DNA from: Phoronis australis
Lineage: Eukaryota; Animalia; Phoronida
Length of the DNA stretch: 64,000 nucleotides
Reading direction: 5' to 3'
Assembly (NCBI GenBank): GCA_002633005.1
Contig: NMRA01000393.1
Span: 329,833 to 393,832, forward strand
Numbering within the stretch: position 1 is the first letter of the stretch; each line of letters begins with the position of its first letter. Positions 10,625 through 63,436 of the stretch are shown one piece after another. Both the position numbers and the translations under genes were made by a program. The notes beneath the pieces were generated by a model that worked only from the letters and a program-made list of their open reading frames with translations, was not told the origin of the DNA and searched no databases.

Positions 10625-10787
10625 TGATTGGTTGGTCATGGTTATAGCAACACGCTGCCCACCCCTTGGAGAGGACTTTGGTTAAGTCCTTATGCAGAGT
10701 TTTACTATAGTTTAATCAATTGTCTTCTTTTGGATTAGCCATCAGCTAAGTAGGAAGTACTTTCTAGGAAGTTGTATCGAGGTAAGA
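10625..10787 (+). promoter_or_regulatory. Candidate promoter/first exon
   Basis: GATTGG, RFX half-site TATAGCAAC (10643-10651), CCCACCCC box, donor GAG|gtaaga at 10781/10782. Confidence 0.3.
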
Positions 10788-13200: not shown

Positions 13201-15136
13201 GCTGACATTCACTGACATTTTGAAACATTCACAGGTTTTATATGAATCGTTTGAATACTCCATTGCAATTTGATGGCTGGTCGCAAAGAATTTATAAAAA
13301 TGCTGTAAATTTCCCTCCACTCAAGAATCCTGAACGTATTCCACAAACTACCCTTTAGCCTTCTGAAATTGTATTGGAAAATGGTGATCATTGGGGGCTG
13401 TGGCTGTCGCAATGGCCACACCCTTGTCCTTGCCCTTCCCCCGCGCTTTCTACAGCATTTACTGTATAGAACTGGGACCTACCTTGACACAGGAATAATT
13501 TGCTAAATACATTTAGTTCAAGTGTGCATCAAAAAATCAAGAAACAGTTAAACTGAAGATTAAAAACGATGATTGTCTTTATGACTAAGTCTGCAGTATA
13601 TGAAAAAATCCAAATATTACGCATATGATAATATTGATTGGTATTGAAAATTCTGTTTGGTGGTTGGTTGTTAAATCACTTTCCAACAAAATCTAAAACT
13701 GCGTGAGAGACAGGTCTTCTGTTACAGCATTCATTGTGTTGTAAGGAAGTTAATATGCTTCCCATATCATGTGACATACTGTACTTCCTAATACCCCATG
13801 CTGTGTTCCTGCCTGATAATAACCTGGGCTCTTCCTTCTTCAGTAAGTTACATTCATTTGCAATAATGCGTTAAAAGTGCAAGGTTGAAGGATGAAGGTC
13901 AGCAGAAATCAATAACCAATTAAAATTACACATAATAAGTACTAGACAATAATCACTAAGTACACAGACTTTCCTAGCAAAGAATGACAATTTTCTGATA
14001 TAGATTACCAGTTCAAATACATAACTTACATGTTACTTGACAGAGATAGACTTGGACAAACATTTGACATCACTTGCCATTCCCTTGTATGTTTTTCTGC
14101 TTGATTTTGCAGCTTTTAACAATTCTTGTGACAACATTAGCATTTCATGTGGGTGATGTTGAAACAACTGTTGGGAAATACCCGTGGCTGAAAGAAATTA
14201 GGATATAATAAATTTGTCCAACCTTCAATCAGGCAGATGTCACTTTCATCTTTGCATTTCAAGTAATTGTCCCTTGGATATTGAAATTGTTGTTGATAGG
14301 TGTGACTAGTTTGGCGGCAGTAAGTGTTACGTGTTTTGCAATATTGTGCACACACTGTGTTTGGATAAAAAAGAATACAATGGTTGTGCAAAGCAAGCTG
14401 TTATACCATTCATTCACAGCATGGTAACCATATGGTTTCTTGATCAAAAACAAGAAAAAGGAGAATTTTTTGATCTCAAAATCTGATGACGTTTAATTCA
14501 GTCAAGTTTCAAATTATTCTGGATGATGACACAATTTTGAGATTTGACTGATTTCTTTATAGAAATATTAAGTGACAGATCAAGTCAAAACTGACATCAC
14601 GTTTTTACAATGGGATAAAATCAAAATTCTTATCAAATGGGAAGAAACTAAAATAAAAGTAAATCATAACTGATTTTACTGTGATACATTAACTAATTTA
14701 AGTGTCTGTTCTTGTTAAACCCTAACGTTTTTTGAAAATGTCTTTGAAATATTTCCTGTCATTTCCCTGGGGCTGATGTCTGCACTCATGTTCCTTCTTC
14801 ATTTGTGGTGTTGAAACTGGTTTAAATCATCGATTGGAATGGAGTGTGTAAGCAGGTTTTCATAAAGAATCAATGGCTTGTTTATGATATGTAAACAGAC
14901 ATCTGTAACGGAGGAACTGGGTGCTGAAAGGGTAGAGACCGCCACCAGTAGAGACCGCCACCAGTAGGTTATCTTCTTTTCATTTGTTCTTCATTGATTA
15001 TCAATCGACTTAAGCATTAGAACATTATACCTGCATTATAGTGTTAATTAGTTGTCATACTCGGGCGAGGGAATACTCACTTTACTTTTAATGTGCTTAC
15101 ATATAGATGGTGCATTATTGCTGTTGTCTCTGTACC

Positions 15137-15507
15137 GGGTCAGGTGACACCAGAGGACTCCTCTGTAAGGGTTCAGGTGATACCAGAGGACTCTTATGTA
15201 AGGGGTCAGGTGACACCAAAGGACTCTTCTGTAAGGGGTCAGGTGACACCCAAGGCCTCCTCTATAAGGGGTCAGGGGACACCAGAGGACTCCTCTGTAA
15301 TGGATCAGGTGACACCAGAGGACTCCTCTGTAAGGGGTGTGGTGACACCAGAGGACTCCTCTGTAAGGGGTGTGCTGACACCAGAGGACTCCTCTGTAAG
15401 GGGTGTGGTGACACCAGAGGACTCCTCTGTAAGGGGTGTGGTGACACCAGAGGACTCCTCTGTAATGGATCAGGTGACACCAGAGGATTCCTCTGTAAGG
15501 GGTCAGG
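15137..15507. repeat. Minisatellite, ~11 x 33 bp
   Basis: ggtcaggtgacaccagaggactcctctgtaagg repeated; accounts for four overlapping ORFs. Confidence 0.95.
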
Positions 15508-31891: not shown

Positions 31892-34800
31892 TGTCTGACT
31901 AAGTCTGTGAAATGGTCTTGGAGATATTTTATTCATCCATAAATAGTCTGGTCTCTACGCCATAGGAGGAAGGACAGGTAATCATGCACTGCTAATGATG
32001 CTGTTGTATGGTCAGTCAAAACTCTTAGAGCGGGTTTTTGTTAATTTAATGTTTTCCTTTCTCAGATGTATGTTTCTGGAACCTTTTCAATCAGTCACTG
32101 ATTTATTGCTGATTTGTTAATTTGTATTTTGGTTTTGTTTACCCCCCTCTCTCTACCTTACAGAAACAAAACAACTGATTTGTCTCGGAGCCGAGTTTTT
32201 ATAGAGGTTTTTTCACAGTTTGAACGTATTTGAAAGTTCTTGGTTACTTTGAAAGAGAGTTGTGCTGAATGTCAGTCTGTAATATGTAGTGTTAATTCCT
32301 AAAAATGGACATGACAGAAAGTCTGTATAGCGTGATATAACGAACTGAGATGTTTTCTTGTGGTAAATAATGATTCACCTGTGTTTGGGAAGAAATTTCA
32401 TCTGTTTCATACTTTTTCATCAGGAGGAATTATATTGCAGACATATAGTTTCACTATTCAGTTCGTTCTTTCAGGAAAATTTGTGGCATAACCGACATGA
32501 AAAATGAAGTCAATAATGTGTGCGGACTTTAGGGCTGTCAGGAACATTAGTCTAGATCTGATGCTGAAAATTTGTAATTCTTTCCTGGACTAACTTGAGA
32601 GAGCAATATTTTGGCTGCAGCACCACCTGGTGTGTGTCAATCTTTGGTGAAATTTTGAACTAAACTCAATTTTGAGTATGTGATAATCTCAGCTATATTC
32701 TTTCGAACACACACCTCTTCACGCTATGCTCAAACAATTTCTCCTTGTCTAGAATATGCACATCATCCAAATCAAAAGTTTGAATTGAAAGTCCATCCTT
32801 GTTGTTTGTTCTGACTCGCATTTCGCCACTGAATGAGTGATAATCTCAATCCAAGTTATTCCAGTGCCTGGTGACAGTTCAATTTGCCCATAGTTTTCTC
32901 TGACATACTGAAATGTCAGTCAAAACATTTTAGATAAGAAGATGAAGTTTGGTCATAAGCATGCAATCAAAATGTCTAGACATTGATTTTTCGCAACTCC
33001 CATTTGCCTAGCTGCTTGCAACACTAAATACAACGGGGCCTCAGTCTTTCACCAGCTCAATATTAGTTAGTCTGTATATCACCAGATGTCCTCTCTTGTC
33101 ACTTGAATGATATCAAGTCAATATTTCAAGTGGATGGCTTACTGAGGAAATCATTTTAATTTTTAAAGTTGAAAAACTTTGTAGTGTTTTAATTCTGTTG
33201 AAACCAAATGCAGTTGAATTGCATAGCACTCTCATTAAGAAAGTCTCTATTTCTAAATTGATACTTAAATCATGCTTATCCAGGTTATTTTATTGTTCAA
33301 TCAACAGATGTGCACTGTAAATGATACTAACCAATGTTGACACGTGATCTCTGTAAATATGATATAGTTATATATAATCTGGTGGAAGAACGGTCACCAG
33401 AGGGCATTGTCTGTCATCTGTTTAGAGTAGGTGATAGCTGGTCTTCGAAATCTGGGCTGATATTCATAATTGTTATCCATGTTTACAACAAGAGGTATAA
33501 TTGTGCCCCATGAATATACCTTTTAAAAGAGGGTTTAAAATGTGACCCATTGTCATACCTCATCTGTCTACCCAAATTATACCTATCCTAATTCTTGTGC
33601 TCAGGTATTTATGGCCTATAGAGTGCCCTGAGTTACAGACCCTAATTTTGTTGCCAAGGAAATGGAAGAATAGTTTGTTGGTGCTACATAGGGTCTTCCA
33701 GGTGTGTATTCAGACTAAAATTTGTTATCAAAATACCAGAAATGGACAGTGTTTCACCACGGAACATGAACCAAAATTGGTTTTCAAAGATGGTGCTGTA
33801 GGGGCCTTTTAAGACTTGGTGGTTTATTTTCATCAAGTGAGGCCCAAGTAGCAGTAGGCACAAAACATTAATGTTTATTTCAATTCAAGACACGCATATG
33901 AGACTTCGTTTTTGGATTGCGAATTCAATATCTCGCAACATTCCTTACTCCCCTCTACTTTGTTATTCAGTTAGCGATTCATTGAATAGCTCACCAATTA
34001 AATAGCAGAAGATATCTGTTCTCAATTTATGGTTATCCTCAGTGTGAATAACTGAATTTTAGGACAATTTTGTACTCTGTGTTTATTTTTAAAATTCCTT
34101 ATCCATTTTATAGTTTCCTACGACATAATACTCCTCATAAATTGCCTACAAATATTTTAAAGTCTGCAGTATGTAGTCCAGGTTTTCGACTTTACCAGAA
34201 CAACTATTAAACTTGATCCAAAAAGGAAATGGACAAAGTGGGGTCACCAAGGATGCCATTGTCAAATTGTTCAGAAGTCATGGAGCAGCAAGGCATGAGA
34301 CATGTATACATAACCCCTGCTCCATGCATCAAGCTGTCATTAACATTTTTGTTAAACAAGTCACAATATTATTGGACTATTTGGCCAGATTGGCTTGATA
34401 CATCAGTCGCCATTGGCATTTGTTTACTCATGCAAGCCAGGCAAACCAAATGTCTCCCCTGATGGCCTTTGGTGTATATATGCGGTTGTCTCTTTGTTTG
34501 ACCATGTCGGGATCAGTTACTTCTCTGGCAGTGAGCCTGTCACCTTCTTGGAGGAACTGACACAATACATTTAGTTTAACCACCCCCTCACTCAACCAAT
34601 ATTGAAACTGTTGTACCTAATATGAAGTGACATTTAAATGAAAAAAGTGATTTTTACCCAATGAAGAGTTGAAAGGATCTGCTTGATTTTTGAAAAATGC
34701 TTGGTTGAAAAATGCAAAGTTTACTTTTCATACTTGTTTTCTGTTTTACTTGTAATCCAATTAATTACAGGTTGGTATACATTCAAAACTTAAATTCCAC

Positions 34801-35692: not shown

Positions 35693-36151
35693 AGGCCCTT
35701 TCCATGTTTTGGGGAGTTGCGTTCAGTATGAAGGGTTTACTGTGGTCCCAAATCAAAGTTAACAGTTAATTTTGCAGTTAACAGACAGATTTTACTGTGG
35801 AGCGTTGACAGTACGGTGCAGTATGAACCATTATCGAAGTTATCACCAGGTACCACTGTTATCGTTAACAATTAAAGGGCAGTGTCGTCGCTAATAGTTG
35901 CCTATATTTCGATCAAATAATCACCAATCTAATAAGTTTTATGTCAATTAGCACGTGTAAATGTTCCCAAATTGTCACATTAAAAAAATCTTAGCGTGCA
36001 GCGCTACCTTGCGATTACTTCGATGATAACAGCGTCACCTACCATCTACTTCAATGTCCATTATACCGAAGCCGGTATGAATGGTTCAGTTAACTTCACA
36101 GTTTACCTGACGCTCCCCTCACACTGGAGTTAAGTCAATAAGAAAGGGCCT
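35693..36151. mobile_element. MITE with aggccctttc/gaaagggcct TIRs (Harbinger-like)
   Basis: Perfect 10-bp inverted termini and a CpG-richer interior than the flanks. Confidence 0.55.
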
Positions 36152-36980: not shown

Positions 36981-37840
36981 TTTCTTTGTTATGGCTAATG
37001 CCATAATTTCCAAACTCTACTGGGCTTAACTGGGGTATCTGGACTACGCAGACGCCTCATGCTTTCAAACTATATTATTTTATAAATCAACCAGGCAGCT
37101 TTTTAACACTGACTTTTTTCTTCAAGGAAGTATTAGTATCTAGGTCTTAGTGCTGAGATGTATCAGTATCTAAACCAGGATGTCAGGGGTGAAGTTGTGA
37201 AGTGCGTTACAATTGTCCCACAAGTGGAGCATTAGCATATGAACATTGTATTCAGGCTTCACAACTCCCCAAACTGTCCAGTTCCGCCCTACCTGTCAAT
37301 TAACCTGGTGACTGACTGGTAGGTGGGCTAGCCTACGCCATCTTTAGGAGGGAGGTTATTGTTGATATGTGTTGTGTTTGCTGTAGACTTGCATCTTACA
37401 ATTAGGAGTCACATTTGTATCCATTATTTTGAAGTGTTTTACTACGTATAATAAGTTGTTTGTTGAATACCATCTCATGCTTATGTTAGAAAGTGACTGT
37501 CTTTAAAAATATGTAGTTGTTCACCCCTCTGGTGAGAATGGGTTGCACCAGCCCAGTTGGAGTCCTGTGAATGTTTGTTGACCTATCAGTTGGCAGGAAT
37601 GCCATAGGCTGTGTACTGGTGCTTTTTCAATTTCACTCTCCTCACCAGCTTGCTGTGAAGTTAGTTAGTCAAGTGTTCTGTTCATTGCTGTGTGGTTTGT
37701 TCATTGGAGGGGTATCAGAAGACATCAGACTTGTGCTGTGCCAGCCTGTCTCTGTGATTCACAGTGCAAGGATATTAGAACTGGACTAGACTGATAGCTT
37801 TGGGTGTTTAGCCTATTTTGTGTTAAACACAGGTTTCAAT

Positions 37841-39884
37841 ATGGCAGATTCAGATCCAGTAACCTTAATTAGTTATACTCATATTAAGGAAGAGAACACA
37901 GTGTGTTCTAGTGAGTCAGATTCTGCAAATGATAATGAAGTTCATGTGAATGGTACTGTTGAGTCAGCGGCTGTACCAACGGGGTCACTACTTACTAATG
38001 GTGGTGGCGACAACAACGAGGAACTTGTGTCACCAGGCAGTATAGACACTGAAAATGTGACGGAGAAAACAGAACAGGAAGTCCAATCAACTTCCATTGA
38101 AAATCTGTCAAGTGAAGCAGAATGTAAAGGTGTGGTCTTGTCAGTAACCAGTGAAGAGAACAAAATGGAAGTACATGAACAGCCTACAGACTCTCCAGAT
38201 ACCCCTAAATGTGAAGAGAAATCTGAAGAAGAACACAGCGAGCCAGTAGCTGTTATCTCTCCTTCTGTGGAGCAGGAAAACCTTGAACAAGCTTCTTCCT
38301 CAGAAGTAGTTGTGGAACCCTCACAGATTGTTGAGGAACAACAGGCTAAGTGCATATCAGAACCAGCTCCCACTGAAGAGGGCGGAGACGTAGTTGAGCC
38401 AACGGAAGAATCACAGTCTAGGGCAGAGGAGGTGGTGGAATCCTCTGAACCACAATTGGAATCTCCTGCTGTGGACACCAACGTACAAGAACCAGCAGAA
38501 GAAGTTGAACTAGTGGGTGAACAAAGTTCTGAGTCAGCTCAGGATGAAGAGACAGCTGCTCCTGGAGATGAAGAACAATCTGGTGGAGAAGTATTGAGCT
38601 GTGGGGATGACAATGCAACTGAGGAGACGTTTGAACCAACACAAACAGAACCAGTGTCAGAAAGTCCACAACCCACTGAACCTGTCTCAGATAAACCCGT
38701 TGTTGCCCCTGTTGTTAGCATGGTGTCTGAATCGGCCCCTGAAGATAATGCTGAGAAAACACAGGAACCTTCAGAACCTGATGAGGAGATTGTAGCCCCA
38801 GTAGTAGAGACATCAGTTGAGGCTGCAGCTGTAGCCCCAGTAGTAGAGAAATCTGTCGAGGCTGCACCTGTAGTCACAGCATCGGAGACAACTGCTGATG
38901 GTAATGGCACTGAGGCTGTTGGTGGTGACAGTAAATCAGGTGAGACATCAGTTAATGATGATCAAATTAATGAGGTCGCTAATAAAATTGTACGGGAAGT
39001 AATTGCCGAGGCTAGTTCTATTGTTCAGAGAGATCATCTGGAGGTGGCTCAGGCCAGGCATGATAGCATTGATGAAACCGAGTTAGTCGTTGATGAGGCA
39101 GACACTATTCTGGAAATTGTAGAGGACCCATTGGTCAATGGTATTATTAATAGTGAGCGTGTTGTAGTTGATGAACAATCAGAAACGTCACATATTGCAG
39201 TACCTGATGAAAAGGTAGACAAATCACTTCCATCTGACCAAAGTCAAGAAGAAGACATGTCACAGGATGGCGAGACTAACGAGGAAGAGACTGATACAGT
39301 TTCACCAACTACCCAGATTGTTGATGTTCAGGAAACAGCTGAAGAACAACCAACAGAACAGGAAGATATCAAGACAGACAAGGGTGTAGTCGGAGAAGAA
39401 CAAAGAGAGGAGGTTGCTCATGTTGCTTCCTCTATCATTGTTGAGAAAGACACTAGCGCCACTGCACAGGAAACACCAATGGAACTAGAATCAATCCCTG
39501 CACAGGAAGCACCAACCGAACAAGAATCCATCCCTACACAGGAAGCACCAAATGAACATGACTCCATCCCTACACAGGAAGCACCAACCGAGCCAGAATC
39601 CATCCCCGTACAGGAAGCACCAAGTGAAGAAGAGTCCATCCCTGTTGATGAAATACAAATGGTTGATGTTGCTCCGGTGGCTTCTTCTCTTATTGTTGGG
39701 GAAGATTCTACTGACCCTTCAGCGGAAGCACCAACTGTCCTAGAATTCTCCCCTGCAAACGTTGCAGTTGAAAACCCAGCGCCTCTGTCTCCCATGATGG
39801 CAGAGGACACCAATTCACCAACTGAACCTGCTGCTAGTACGCCAGCTGAGAACTCCACTGGCACTGAAGCCATTCAGGATCATG
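37841..39884 (+). CDS. Coding exon A: ~681 codons of Glu/Pro/Ser/Thr/Val-rich acidic low-complexity sequence with an AKAP-like amphipathic helix; N-terminal arm of the SDR gene
   Basis: 715-codon ORF in a window where other non-repeat ORFs are short. Acceptor ttttgtgttaaacacag|G at 37832/37833, ATG at 37841. Donor CATG|gtattc at 39884/39885 (phase 1) is in frame with exon 41541. Confidence 0.85.
38792..38869 (+). repeat. Coding tandem repeat, 2 x 39 nt (VAPVVExSVEAAx)
   Basis: gtagccccagtagtagaga at 38792 and 38831. Confidence 0.88.
39464..39643 (+). repeat. Coding tandem repeat, 5 x 36 nt (xQEAPTExESIP)
   Basis: AQETPMELESIP/AQEAPTEQESIP/TQEAPNEHDSIP/TQEAPTEPESIP/VQEAPSEEESIP, also visible at DNA level. 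Confidence 0.92.
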
Positions 39885-41540
39885 GTATTCCAGCATGGTG
39901 CTCAGTTTGGTGTGGTTGTTCAATATCAGTTTGTAGTCACCTAGGCTTTCATAGTGTTTCAAGGTAGCATTTGAACTGTAGCTGTCTAGTCACACACCCT
40001 GTAGATGTAGTGATGAGTGTAACATGGCCCCTGCAGTTGGTTCCTGTTATCAGGTGTGGGGTAATTAACACAACATGTTCTTAATGAATGTGCAGAGTTT
40101 ACCCACTCAACTTAGCATGAGTCATTCTTGTTTCTTGACTTGAGCTCTCCTTCATCACCGGTTTGGCTTGTTTGATGATGGTTTCCGTCTGCTTTTTTCA
40201 CACAGATACTTATACATTTCACCTGTGTTTGTATTCATGTAGACCAAGAAGTAACTGTTTGTTCTTGCAAAAAAGATTTTTGGCTAAACTGATAATTACT
40301 GCAGAAACATATCCTTAGGGGTTTTGGAAAATGTATGGTCTCTGATTTACTTCTGAATTTCAAACAGTTGTAGCACTGACGACCACTTAATGTATGAACT
40401 CTTGTTCACTTTGCTTGTTTTGGTAAATATCAGCTCGCATTACCTGATCTTTTTCAGTCTCGTGATTCCACACTTTTATGAATTTGCAATTGAATGTGAA
40501 TGGTGTTTGGAGTAGTTGGGAAAGATTTTGCTACCATTGTTTAGACAACTGATATAAGGATTTTTGTTCATCCTCACTGTGGCTTAGTTGTTATCTGTCA
40601 TGGTGCTATCAGATGTGTGTGTAGTGATGACAGCTTGTGATAACATGACTGCTTATGTGTTTGGCATGCTGTTCCTGCATCGCTATGTGCAACTGAAAAC
40701 TGCAACTTTCTCAAGAACAGTTTTTTTCAGCCAAACTTTAATGCTTTTGTCAAGCAAGTGGTGATGTTTTTGAAATCCATAAGTGTTGACACAATTTAAA
40801 AGTACTTAGCATATAGTAACTGTTTTAGCTGTGATTTTCACATCCACATTACATTTAATCTTTTAGCATCTCAATATTTTTTAAATGTGATGGATGACCT
40901 CTATTGACTGAGAACGATTTTCCACTTTGCTTCAAGATCAAACCCCAATTATCTTGTCGTGTTTCCAACTTATTTCCGGCAGTAAGCCTTGCCATTTCCT
41001 GTTTAGCCTGCTCACTGATGCATTACTCTTTCAGTCAGCTTGGATTCGAAACCACCACGAAAGCCTTCTTCACCACTTTTATGTTGTTTTCGTCCACCAG
41101 GTGTGCTAGTTGTCTTTCTCTCTTTATCCTAGTTTCTTGTTGGTTAATTTTTCACAGTACACTGTACTGTCTTGGTCTCCTAGTGAGTTAAGCTGCTGTT
41201 TTCTTTCCTTTAATCGGTGAAGTAATCTGGAGTGGTCATATTTTTATGGTTGGCTTTGTTTCACCTTTGACCTTACTCGTCCGTGTCTGTACGAAAACTG
41301 GTGTGCTTTGCTTTTGATATTACAATCTGAAAGTTCTTGCTTATAACACTGTACTCAAATGGCGTGTTTATGTTCAACTTGGTGATCATTTGTTCTATAC
41401 TCCCTAAAAATACATATTGTTACCAGATAATTTCAGTGATTTATAGGATTTATTCCAATATCAGTGCGTAATAACAGTTTGCAAATATTTTGCCATCAGT
41501 TTACTCCTTAGTTTATGTTCCAATCTGTTCTCTCTTCCAG

Positions 41541-41837
41541 TTGCCAAGCAAGAAACTGACAAAATGTCTGATGCTAAAGAAGAGGTACAAACCACTGAGC
41601 AGACGCCAGAACAGGCCGAACCTGCTGCCGCAGCAGAAGAGACCGCTCCTGTTGACGCCCCTGTAGCCACGGAGGGAGAAACTCCAGCTGCTGAGCCAGC
41701 AGAGGTTGCTACCGAGTCTGCAGCGGCGGAGCCTGAAGCAGAGGAGCCCAAGGTTGAACCTGAAGAAGAGGTGGAGCCTGAGATTGTGGAGCCTACTGGT
41801 CCGTTGGTGCCAGCTAACGAAGATGGTTCCAAGCCTT
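41541..41837 (+). CDS. Coding exon B (297 nt, phase 1-1): Glu/Ala/Pro-rich acidic linker with its own in-frame ATG at 41564
   Basis: Acceptor ctgttctctcttccag|TT, donor CCTT|gtaagt. Reads (V)AKQETDKMSDAKEEVQ...EDGSKP and joins exon 57082 in frame to give KP-LILVSGASG. Confidence 0.88.
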
Positions 41838-57081: not shown

Positions 57082-57283
57082 TGATCTTGGTGTCTGGTGC
57101 CTCTGGTTACATTGCTTCACACATTGTCAAGTTCCTACTTGAGGATGGACAGCGTGTGCGTGGCACTGTACGCAGCCTGGAGAATGAAGAGAAGGTGAAG
57201 CCCCTGCGAGAGCTGTGCCCGGAGGCAGAGAACCCCCTGGAGCTGGTGGAGGCTGATCTGACCAAGCCTGAGACATGGGAGGG
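57082..57283 (+). CDS. SDR exon C: Rossmann-fold start of an extended-SDR NAD(P)H reductase (DFR/CCR/Gre2-like)
   Basis: ILVSGASGYIASHIV (GxxGxxA), VRGTVRS, LELVEADL. Acceptor ttttctatttccctag, donor GG|gtaaga (phase 2). Confidence 0.95.
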
Positions 57284-58533: not shown

Positions 58534-58715
58534 TGTCTTGAAGGACTGTACCTATGTGATCCATGTGGCTAGCCCATTCCCACTCACCCAGCCTAAGGAT
58601 GAGAGTGAGGTAATCCAGCCTGCCGTTGAGGGCACACAGACTGTTCTCAAGGCATGTTCCGCAGCCAAGACGGTCAAGAGAGTGGTGCTGACAAGTTCCG
58701 TGGTTGCCATTAGAG
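58534..58715 (+). CDS. SDR exon D
   Basis: VLKDCTYVIHVASPFP...PAVEGTQTVLKAC...VKRVVLTSSVVAI, with the HVASP motif and catalytic-Ser region. Acceptor ctattgtag, donor AG|gtcagt (phase 1). Confidence 0.95.
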
Positions 58716-59155: not shown

Positions 59156-59302
59156 ATTTCTCTCAAGCATCCAGCGACCCTAACATGGTGTACAATGAAG
59201 AGACCTGGACAGACACAGAGAGTCAGCCAGCAGTGACTGCATACGCCAAGAGTAAGACTCTGGCAGAAAAGGCAGCCTGGGACTTTATTAATGAGTTACC
59301 AG
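59156..59302 (+). CDS. SDR exon E containing the catalytic YxxxK
   Basis: YNEETWTD...AYAKSKTLAEKAAWDF. Branch-like ctaac at 59126, acceptor ttgtag, donor CAG|gtaagc (phase 1). Confidence 0.95.
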
Positions 59303-60049: not shown

Positions 60050-60138
60050 ATGACGAGAAGTTTGAACTTGCGGTAATCAATCCTGCCTATGTGATTGGAC
60101 CAGTATTAAGCGGTGCTAACCACTGTACAAGTATGGAG
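60050..60138 (+). CDS. SDR exon F
   Basis: DDEKFELAVINPAYVIGPVL...TSME. Acceptor tgctttcag, donor GAG|gtaatg (phase 0). Confidence 0.93.
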
Positions 60139-62102: not shown

Positions 62103-62223
62103 ATTCCCAAGCGTCTTCTTGAGCGGGCCACTCCCATGTTACCCAAACTCAACTTCCCTGTTGTTGACGTTAGAGATGTCGCCCTCGCTCATATCAGAGC
62201 TCTCACCATGCCAGATGCTGCAG
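62103..62223 (+). CDS. SDR exon G
   Basis: IPKRLLER...FPVVDVRDVALAHIRALTMPDAA (VDVRDVA motif). Acceptor gtcttttcag, donor CAG|gtaaac (phase 1). Confidence 0.94.
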
Positions 62224-62525: not shown

Positions 62526-62606
62526 GCAAACGTCATATTCTGTTCACTAAAAACATGTGGATGAAAGAGATAGCTCAGTGCGTCGCTAAAGAGTTTAAAC
62601 CCCAAG
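62526..62606 (+). CDS. SDR exon H1 (81 nt), first member of a duplicated exon pair
   Basis: (G)KRHILFTKNMWMKEIAQCVAKEFKPQ(G). Acceptor ttttctag, donor AAG|gtagac, phase 1-1. Too short for the ORF track. Confidence 0.9.
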
Positions 62607-63355: not shown

Positions 63356-63436
63356 GACACAGGCATATTTTGAATACCAAGAATATAAACATAAAGGATA
63401 TGGCCCTGCTCATGGATGAGGAATTCAGGGAACAAG
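63356..63436 (+). CDS. SDR exon H2 (81 nt), paralogous alternative to H1, probably mutually exclusive
   Basis: (G)HRHILNTKNINIKDMALLMDEEFREQ(G). Same length and phase as H1, 13/27 identical residues. Acceptor attag, donor AAG|gtagta. Confidence 0.82.

What the first reader, a model, noticed from the sequence alone, without database searches (positions are those of the whole stretch)
38960..39025. AKAP-type PKA-RII/RIIa-binding helix inside the acidic arm of a reductase: a putative kinase-anchoring enzyme
Seen: in ~680 aa of Pro/Glu-rich low-complexity sequence, one Pro-free amphipathic segment stands out, DQINEVANKIVREVIAEASSIV (aa ~374-395). Known: AKAPs dock PKA regulatory subunits through a helix with hydrophobic spacing h-xx-hh-xx-hh-xx-hh-xx-h. 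This segment aligns without gaps to Ht31 (DLIEEAASRIVDAVIEQV) and AKAP-IS (QIEYLAKQIVDNAIQQA), with I, VA, IV, VI and A at the hydrophobic positions. Large acidic disordered bodies carrying one such helix are typical of AKAPs such as gravin. Inference: the long isoform tethers PKA, or a ciliary/sperm RIIa-domain protein (ropporin, Sp17), to an NADPH reductase. I know of no described AKAP-SDR fusion, but could not search.
Basis: partly seen in the sequence, partly recalled or inferred. Interest (0 to 1): 0.85.

Follow-up and report, generated by a model that had tools for sequence, protein, structure and literature searches.

The report
Spliceable PKA-anchor-like helix on a reductase
An invertebrate reductase gene encodes a helix predicted to dock protein kinase A, but every splice joint seen in RNA cuts just before it, so it likely reaches the enzyme only in a rare long form that was not seen directly.

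Summary
The helix is real (aa 374-395 of an open acidic frame, 37841-39967). It is the most amphipathic segment of the arm, fills 8 of 8 hydrophobic AKAP-face positions and hits Pfam RII_binding_1: 21.4 bits alone, 15.3 in the whole arm, cut-off 18.8. The gene is a DFR/GRE2-type extended SDR. RNA reads change the picture. All 46 listed splice joints leaving exon A use a donor at 38939, 20 nt before the helix; none is listed at the long donor (39884) that the fusion needs. The skipped 945 nt still look coding: no stops, 8 of 13 read differences synonymous, a composition step beside an in-frame GT, and more coverage than the intron behind. The best reading is an alternative 5' splice extension that gives a minor helix-bearing isoform, as in Drosophila AKAP200-L/S. 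No relative of the helix or arm was found, and binding was not tested. An RNA-supported 22-codon cassette nearby carries a PKA-type site (RKPS) before a Cys-Cys pair. An AKAP-reductase fusion is about 30% likely. New variant of a known kind at best.

The parts
37612..38939 (+). Exon A, short form: likely an alternative first exon; ATG 37841, 366 acidic low-complexity codons, phase-1 donor CAG|GTGAGA at 38939
   Evidence: X1 contig runs unbroken 37612-38083; stranded depth about 29-44 in X2/X3; 33 joints to 41541 and 13 to 41035; only one ATG in 37612-37843
38940..39884 (+). Coding-like extension of exon A (315 codons), ending at an inferred weak phase-1 donor ATG|GTATTC
   Evidence: 0 stops vs 0 of 5000 stop-free base shuffles; 8 of 13 read differences synonymous, 28% expected, p about 0.012; composition change point 39872; depth 14-17% of pre-donor depth; no joint listed at 39884
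38960..39025 (+). Amphipathic AKAP/RII-binding-like helix, aa 374-395
   Evidence: Pfam PF10522 21.4 bits as a peptide, 15.3-16.2 in context; hydrophobic moment 0.579; AF2 helix; the one read difference inside it (39010) is synonymous
39885..39967 (+). Read-through tail to the stop, translated only if the intron is retained (would give a 709-aa protein without the reductase)
   Evidence: ORF end; intron-like T content 0.39 vs 0.22; no AATAAA/ATTAAA printed for 39900-41540
41035..41100 (+). In-frame 22-codon cassette exon with a PKA-type site (RKPS) upstream of a Cys-Cys pair
   Evidence: 13 joints in from 38939 and 15 joints out to 41541, all GT..AG; translation; motif scan
41541..41837 (+). 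Exon B: shared acidic Glu/Ala/Pro-rich exon with its own in-frame ATG; joined to the first SDR exon
   Evidence: Loose ends at 41837 match 57082 onward in all 4 runs (1 contig; 28, 33, 62 reads); two other upstream exons also join it
10750..10781 (+). 3' end of another upstream exon that splices to exon B across about 30.8 kb
   Evidence: Loose-end consensus before 41539 (19, 24, 17 reads) matches here, ahead of a GT donor
57082..57283 (+). SDR exon 1 (Gly-rich nucleotide-binding motif GASGY)
   Evidence: 224 homologues at E<=1e-10 among 319 candidates; join from exon B seen in reads
58534..58715 (+). SDR exon 2 (catalytic Ser region)
   Evidence: AG/GT and open frame in the model; Pfam 3Beta_HSD 29.3 bits; joins inferred
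59156..59302 (+). SDR exon 3 (YxxxK motif YAKSK)
   Evidence: joins inferred
60050..60138 (+). SDR exon 4
   Evidence: joins inferred
62103..62223 (+). SDR exon 5
   Evidence: joins inferred
62526..62606 (+). SDR exon 6a, likely mutually exclusive with 6b
   Evidence: 81 nt, AG/GT; aligns to the same columns as 6b; mollusc isoform pairs swap this segment
63356..63436 (+). SDR exon 6b; the gene continues beyond the window

Best explanation
The helix lies in an extension of the first exon that all observed spliced RNAs remove, and a minor long splice form likely keeps it, making the reductase a predicted dock for a PKA-type (RII-like) regulatory dimer. Shown: exon A is transcribed and splices at 38939 to exon B (directly or through a 22-codon cassette), and exon B splices to an extended SDR of the DFR/CCR/GRE2 group. 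Inferred: a weaker in-frame donor at 39884 adds 315 acidic codons with one amphipathic helix, whose hydrophobic face would fit the groove of a docking-and-dimerisation (D/D) domain. The long disordered arm would then hold PKA, or another D/D protein, near the enzyme. The choice of donor would switch anchoring on or off, as exon 5 does in Drosophila AKAP200. The cassette's PKA-type serine before a Cys-Cys pair would let the same kinase control membrane attachment of the enzyme (by analogy only).
For: Helix: Pfam RII_binding_1 21.4 bits on the peptide, cut-off 18.8; hydrophobic residues at positions 2, 5, 6, 9, 10, 13, 14 and 17 as named in PMC12083921 (passage; mapped), with no FA motif, so RII-type; the only confident helix in an AF2 model; pattern in 53 of 5000 shuffles and in 0 of 61 arms and 0 of 144 cores of homologues. 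Extension is coding-like: open for 341 codons while the other two frames hold 10 and 42 stops; 8 of 13 read differences synonymous and 9 of 13 at third positions (p about 0.012 and 0.009); base composition like exon A up to a change point at 39872, 12 nt from a phase-1 GT that keeps the frame into exon B and the SDR. Coverage: mean depth over the extension 4.8, 5.1, 1.3 vs 2.6, 1.9, 0.3 in the intron behind it, falling at about 39884 in all three read sets; run X1 has three contigs in the extension (depth 17-35, against 22-55 in the 5' part of exon A) and none in the intron. Precedent: AKAP200-L/S differ by the exon bearing the PKA tether (PMC5785023, passages); AKAP95 gained its helix by insertion (PMC12203939, passage).
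Against: No joint at 39884 is listed, against 46 at 38939; the list needs 3 or more reads, and only 18-19% of each raw run was read. The long donor matches 3 of 7 consensus positions, the short one 6 of 7. The intron behind the extension also carries reads up to the cassette, so unspliced RNA explains part of the coverage. X1's exon-B contig starts at 41539, with no piece bridging 39884 to B. In context the Pfam score is below the cut-off (15.3-16.2 bits), and the model is only 19 positions long. No relative of the helix or arm was found; 0 of 14 scanned homologues hit RII_binding_1, and only 1 of 144 has an N-arm of 150 aa or more. Acidic arms are common in this family without any such helix.
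Confidence: 0.3

Rival explanations
1. The long reductase isoform exists, but the helix is not a D/D ligand: it is a generic amphipathic element that binds another protein or a membrane, or a chance helix in an Ala/Val/Ile/Glu-rich arm.
For: Pfam score under the cut-off in context; the pattern arises in about 1% of shuffles of this arm and was picked after the fact; no conservation found; the PDB search returned only unrelated helical proteins.
Against: Full-length match (profile 1-18 of 19) and 8 of 8 face positions; the pattern is absent from about 52,000 residues of homologues.
Confidence: 0.27
2. The extension is a disused or barely used exon remnant. Its coverage is unspliced pre-mRNA, and the helix is never made in meaningful amounts.
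For: 0 listed joints at 39884 vs 46 at 38939; continuous low coverage of the intron to 41100 in X2 and X3, then zero at 41184-41489, as for a slowly spliced intron; weak long donor.
Against: Excess of synonymous differences among current alleles and no stop or frameshift among the listed differences; X1 contigs cover the extension but not the intron.
Confidence: 0.23
3. The helix is made only in a stand-alone 709-aa acidic protein read from intron-retaining RNA to the stop at 39967: an AKAP-like scaffold from the same promoter, not fused to the enzyme.
For: The frame stays open to 39967; reads cover the intron beyond 39884 in X2 and X3; no long-donor joint is listed.
Against: Composition turns intron-like at 39872, before the stop; no canonical poly(A) signal in 39900-41540; a stop far upstream of further exon joints would normally invite nonsense-mediated decay (established knowledge).
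Confidence: 0.15

Closest known systems
A-kinase anchoring proteins and other D/D-domain-interacting proteins (Pfam RII_binding_1, PF10522)
   Same: One 14-18 residue amphipathic helix with the conserved hydrophobic face (PMC12083921, passages), set in a disordered acidic body; RII-type consensus, no FA motif.
   Different: Binding untested; below the Pfam cut-off in context; no sequence relatives found; sits in a gene whose core is a reductase.
Drosophila AKAP200 (L and S splice forms)
   Same: An invertebrate gene whose PKA-tether region is included or removed by alternative splicing (PMC5785023, passages).
   Different: There a cassette exon is skipped and both forms are documented; here an alternative 5' donor is inferred and the long form was not seen. 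No homology was tested, and no enzyme domain is described for AKAP200 in the passages read.
Invertebrate DFR/CCR/GRE2/ARI1-like extended SDRs (NAD-dependent epimerase/dehydratase family, PF01370)
   Same: 61-70% identity over about 274 residues to the 15 best of 120 homologues, led by gastropods; GASGY, catalytic Ser region and YxxxK present; groups with Owenia and molluscs at 92/97 support, not starred; acidic arms are common; a mollusc homologue's best solved relatives are DFR, cinnamoyl-CoA reductase and GRE2.
   Different: The N-terminal arm here is 465 aa (short form) or 780 aa (long form), against 150 aa or more in only 1 of 144 homologues; no homologue scanned has the helix; substrate unknown.
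BK-channel STREX insert and AKAP18-alpha lipid anchor (analogues of the cassette exon)
   Same: An alternatively spliced insert with a PKA site in basic residues upstream of an S-acylated Cys-Cys pair (PMC4122160, passages); di-Cys palmitoylation targets AKAP18-alpha (PMC2174236, passages).
   Different: Analogy only: the cassette is 22 aa, less basic, has no Pfam hit, and neither acylation nor phosphorylation was tested.

Membership tests
AKAP / D/D-interacting protein | 14-18 residue amphipathic helix | tested here: met
   Hydrophobic moment 0.579, the highest in the arm; AF2 helix aa ~373-407
AKAP / D/D-interacting protein | Hydrophobic residues at helix positions 2, 5, 6, 9, 10, 13, 14, 17 (PMC12083921) | tested here: met
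   I376, V379, A380, I383, V384, V387, I388, A391: 8 of 8
AKAP / D/D-interacting protein | Pfam RII_binding_1 above the gathering score of 18.8 | tested here: inconclusive
   21.4 and 19.5 bits on excised peptides; 16.2, 16.0 and 15.3 bits on longer natural frames
AKAP / D/D-interacting protein | High-affinity binding to an R-subunit D/D dimer, lost on proline substitution | not testable with these tools
   Needs an overlay or pull-down; no R-subunit sequence was at hand for complex modelling
AKAP / D/D-interacting protein | Helix conserved in orthologues | tested here: inconclusive
   No orthologous arm found; 0 of 14 more distant homologues hit the Pfam model; the one allele difference in the helix is synonymous
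Type I (RI)-selective AKAP | FA/YA motif at helix positions 1-2 | tested here: not met
   Positions 1-2 are Q375, I376
AKAP-enzyme fusion (the claim) | Helix and reductase in one spliced mRNA | tested here: inconclusive
   0 listed joints at 39884 vs 46 at 38939; the frame would be open if joined; depth there is too low to pass the 3-read listing limit
Extended SDR, DFR/CCR/GRE2 group | Gly-rich nucleotide-binding motif, catalytic Ser and YxxxK | tested here: met
   GASGY, SSVVA and YAKSK in the exon model; homologues carry PF01370
Extended SDR, DFR/CCR/GRE2 group | NADPH-dependent carbonyl reduction | not testable with these tools
   Inferred from the family

The most novel reading that the evidence does not exclude
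One invertebrate reductase gene builds a splice-controlled cAMP signalling module: the choice of 5' donor adds or removes a PKA-docking helix, and a separate cassette adds a PKA-gated palmitoylation switch, so a carbonyl reductase both anchors PKA and is moved on and off membranes by it.
Probability: 0.15. Interest if true: 0.75.

Novelty: new variant of a known kind. Interest (0 to 1): 0.42.

Why it matters
Few AKAPs are known outside vertebrates (PMC12083921, section 4, places most origins at the vertebrate base), and I found no AKAP-SDR link in print. A confirmed case would show a metabolic enzyme gaining kinase anchoring through an exon extension in one lineage, and would give a simple on/off splice test of how such helices arise. 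The appeal is limited: enzymes with anchoring helices are known (OPA1, same paper), the feature is not seen in homologues, and it is absent from the spliced RNAs observed.

Tried and rejected
No whole genome is held for this window. Homologue searches for the arm found nothing: aa 362-460 against proteins of 374-1192 aa, 0 of 71 candidates at E<=1; exon B against proteins of 173-2000 aa, 0 of 7993 scored; aa 367-470 against 1.84 billion representatives, 0 at E<=0.001; metagenome contigs, 1 locus from 594 pattern matches, rejected as a chance 34% match to a frame opposite a bacterial ABC-transporter-like gene. The ESM Atlas gave no answer. The PDB sequence search with the helix gave 2 unrelated hits; chains under 20 residues are not in that set. 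The short recalled AKAP consensus was rejected as uninformative (2365 of 5000 shuffles). The assumed acceptor at 37833 was dropped because RNA runs through it from 37612. The run search listed no indexed RNA holder with half the words or more; this blank is not used as evidence. Three look-ups of earlier findings returned nothing. Paper searches with no hit.

Full report
Setting. The window is animal DNA (about 38% GC, intron-rich) with no whole genome held. The finding lies in the only long frame, 37790-39967 (+), 725 codons stop to stop, first ATG at 37841. Downstream are a second acidic exon (B, 41541-41837) and the exons of an extended short-chain reductase from 57082 on; the gene runs off the window's 3' end.

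The helix. It lies in the longest Pro-free stretch of the 681-aa arm (86 aa) and holds the highest 18-residue hydrophobic moment (0.579; next 0.46). The long h-xx-hh-xx-hh-xx-hh-xx-h pattern occurs once, in 53 of 5000 composition shuffles, in 0 of 61 acidic arms of homologues and in 0 of 144 reductase cores. The pattern was chosen after the fact; a shorter recalled consensus hit 2365 of 5000 shuffles. Pfam RII_binding_1 matches profile positions 1-18 of 19: 21.4 bits for the 22-mer and 19.5 for a 36-mer, but 16.2 for the 314-aa extension and 15.3 for 676 aa, against a cut-off of 18.8. PMC12083921 (abstract, passages and section 4 read) names positions 2, 5, 6, 9, 10, 13, 14 and 17 as the conserved face; all 8 are hydrophobic here, and the RI-type FA motif is absent. 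AlphaFold2 on 131 residues without an alignment gives one long helix, aa ~373-407, pLDDT 82-84 at its core, mean 61.6. The helix is a fair AKAP candidate, not a proven one.

Is it joined to the enzyme? Four runs of one coded organism were laid on the locus: one contig set (X1) and three stranded raw RNA runs (X2-X4, 18-19% of each read); many reads are 99% or more alike. Exon A is transcribed on the + strand from about 37612-37650 with no upstream joint listed, so it is likely a first exon. Exon B joins SDR exon 1 in all 4 runs (loose ends at 41837 match 57082; 1 contig and 28, 33, 62 reads). But the donor used in exon A is at 38939, 20 nt before the helix: 13+14+6 = 33 joints go to exon B and 9+4+0 = 13 to a 66-nt cassette at 41035-41100, which joins B in 10+2+3 = 15 reads. 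Two other upstream exons also feed exon B, one ending at 10781 and one not in the window. So every spliced form seen lacks the helix.

Why the long form is still likely. The 945 nt after the donor look like coding sequence. The frame has no stop for 341 codons; the other frames have 10 and 42, and 0 of 5000 base shuffles are stop-free. Of all 13 read differences listed in 38940-39884, 8 are synonymous (28% expected, p about 0.012) and 9 are at third positions (p about 0.009); for the 5' part of exon A, 12 of 25 differences are synonymous, those 25 coming from a table capped at 40 of 232 rows. The one difference inside the helix is silent. Amino-acid and base composition continue those of exon A until a change point at 39872, 12 nt from a GT at 39885 that is in the same phase as the short donor and keeps the frame open through B and the reductase. 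Mean depth over the extension is 4.8, 5.1 and 1.3, which is 14-17% of pre-donor depth and 1.8-4 times that of the intron behind, and it falls at about 39884 in all three runs. By my own arithmetic from the short donor (about 0.7 joints per unit of depth lost), this predicts about 1-2 long-donor reads per run, under the 3-read listing limit, so the blank caps the long form at roughly a tenth of exon-A splicing in these samples and does not exclude it. X1 has contigs in the extension at depths like the rest of exon A and none in the intron, though holes in contig sets prove nothing. Against this: the long donor matches only 3 of 7 consensus positions, the intron carries reads up to the cassette (unspliced RNA), and no X1 piece bridges 39884 to B.

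The enzyme. The exon model gives an extended SDR with GASGY, the catalytic Ser region and YAKSK; the 15 best of 120 homologues are 61-70% identical, gastropods first. In a tree of the window core and 38 of the 145 fetched proteins it groups with Owenia and molluscs at 92/97 support, below the starred level. A mollusc homologue's closest solved relatives are DFR, cinnamoyl-CoA reductase and GRE2, so NADPH use is inferred from the family and the substrate is unknown. Acidic N- or C-terminal arms are common in these invertebrate enzymes (27 shown), but only 1 of 144 has an N-arm of 150 aa or more and 0 of 14 scanned hit RII_binding_1. Annotated isoforms in 10 clusters are 68-467 aa long; none is a long form (clusters are at 90% identity, so a long form could sit elsewhere). 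No relative of the arm, of exon B or of the helix was found, so conservation is untested, not refuted.

A second lead. The RNA-supported cassette encodes 22 in-frame residues with RKPS, the only [RK][RK]x[ST] site in exon A (long form), the cassette and exon B (the consensus is recalled), a few residues before a Cys-Cys pair. This layout recalls the STREX insert of BK channels, where a PKA site in basic residues upstream of an S-acylated di-cysteine controls membrane binding (PMC4122160, passages), and the di-Cys anchor of AKAP18-alpha (PMC2174236, passages). It is an analogy, but it is a separate hint that the arm is tied to cAMP signalling.

Mechanism and odds. Most likely the gene makes several N-terminal variants by promoter and splice choice, and a minor long variant carries a D/D-docking helix that tethers PKA or a related D/D protein to the reductase (0.30). 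Rivals: a long form whose helix binds something else (0.27), a disused extension covered by pre-mRNA (0.23), and a stand-alone 709-aa acidic protein from retained intron (0.15). Drosophila AKAP200, whose exon 5 tether is spliced out in the short form, is the nearest precedent (PMC5785023, passages).

Novelty. Full-text searches for an AKAP-reductase link gave 0 papers. Two looser searches gave 9 and 40 papers; none of the 9 and 12 listed describes one by title or abstract start. The library lacks most subscription journals, and no supplements were read. Enzymes with anchoring helices are known (OPA1).

Noticed in passing
window 41035-41100 (+): RNA-supported in-frame cassette exon of 22 codons with a PKA-type RKPS site upstream of a Cys-Cys pair, a STREX-like layout; used in 13 of 46 listed joints from exon A.
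   Followed up: partly
window 62526-62606 and 63356-63436 (+): Two 81-nt look-alike exons for the same reductase segment. In 5 of 9 homologue isoform pairs compared (Haliotis, Patella) the two forms differ only by a swap of this segment, and one Patella model holds both: a likely conserved pair of mutually exclusive exons.
   Followed up: partly
window 10750-10781 (+) and outside the window: Two further upstream exons splice to exon B, which has its own ATG; one lies 30.8 kb upstream, the other is not in the window. The gene likely has at least three promoters.
   Followed up: partly
window 39462-39644 and 38791-38873 (+): In-frame tandem repeats inside the arm (36 nt x 5.1 and 39 nt x 2.1), suggesting that the arm grows by internal duplication.
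   Followed up: no
window 35700-36150 and 33764-33798: High read depth on both strands with many loose ends and back-joints: likely dispersed repeats or mobile-element fragments transcribed from many loci.
   Followed up: no
window 15128-15507: 33-nt x 11.5 tandem repeat that keeps frames of 150-210 codons open on both strands; probably a minisatellite.
   Followed up: no
homologues P0061/P0062 and P0068/P0071 (alignment A1): Lobster isoforms of the homologous reductase differ in a different segment, next to the nucleotide-binding fold, hinting at a second, independent pair of alternative exons in decapods.
   Followed up: no
P0044, P0065, P0092, P0112, P0117: An unnamed clade of this reductase with both N- and C-terminal acidic Pro/Glu repeat arms (614-773 aa); the role of the arms is unexplained.
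   Followed up: no
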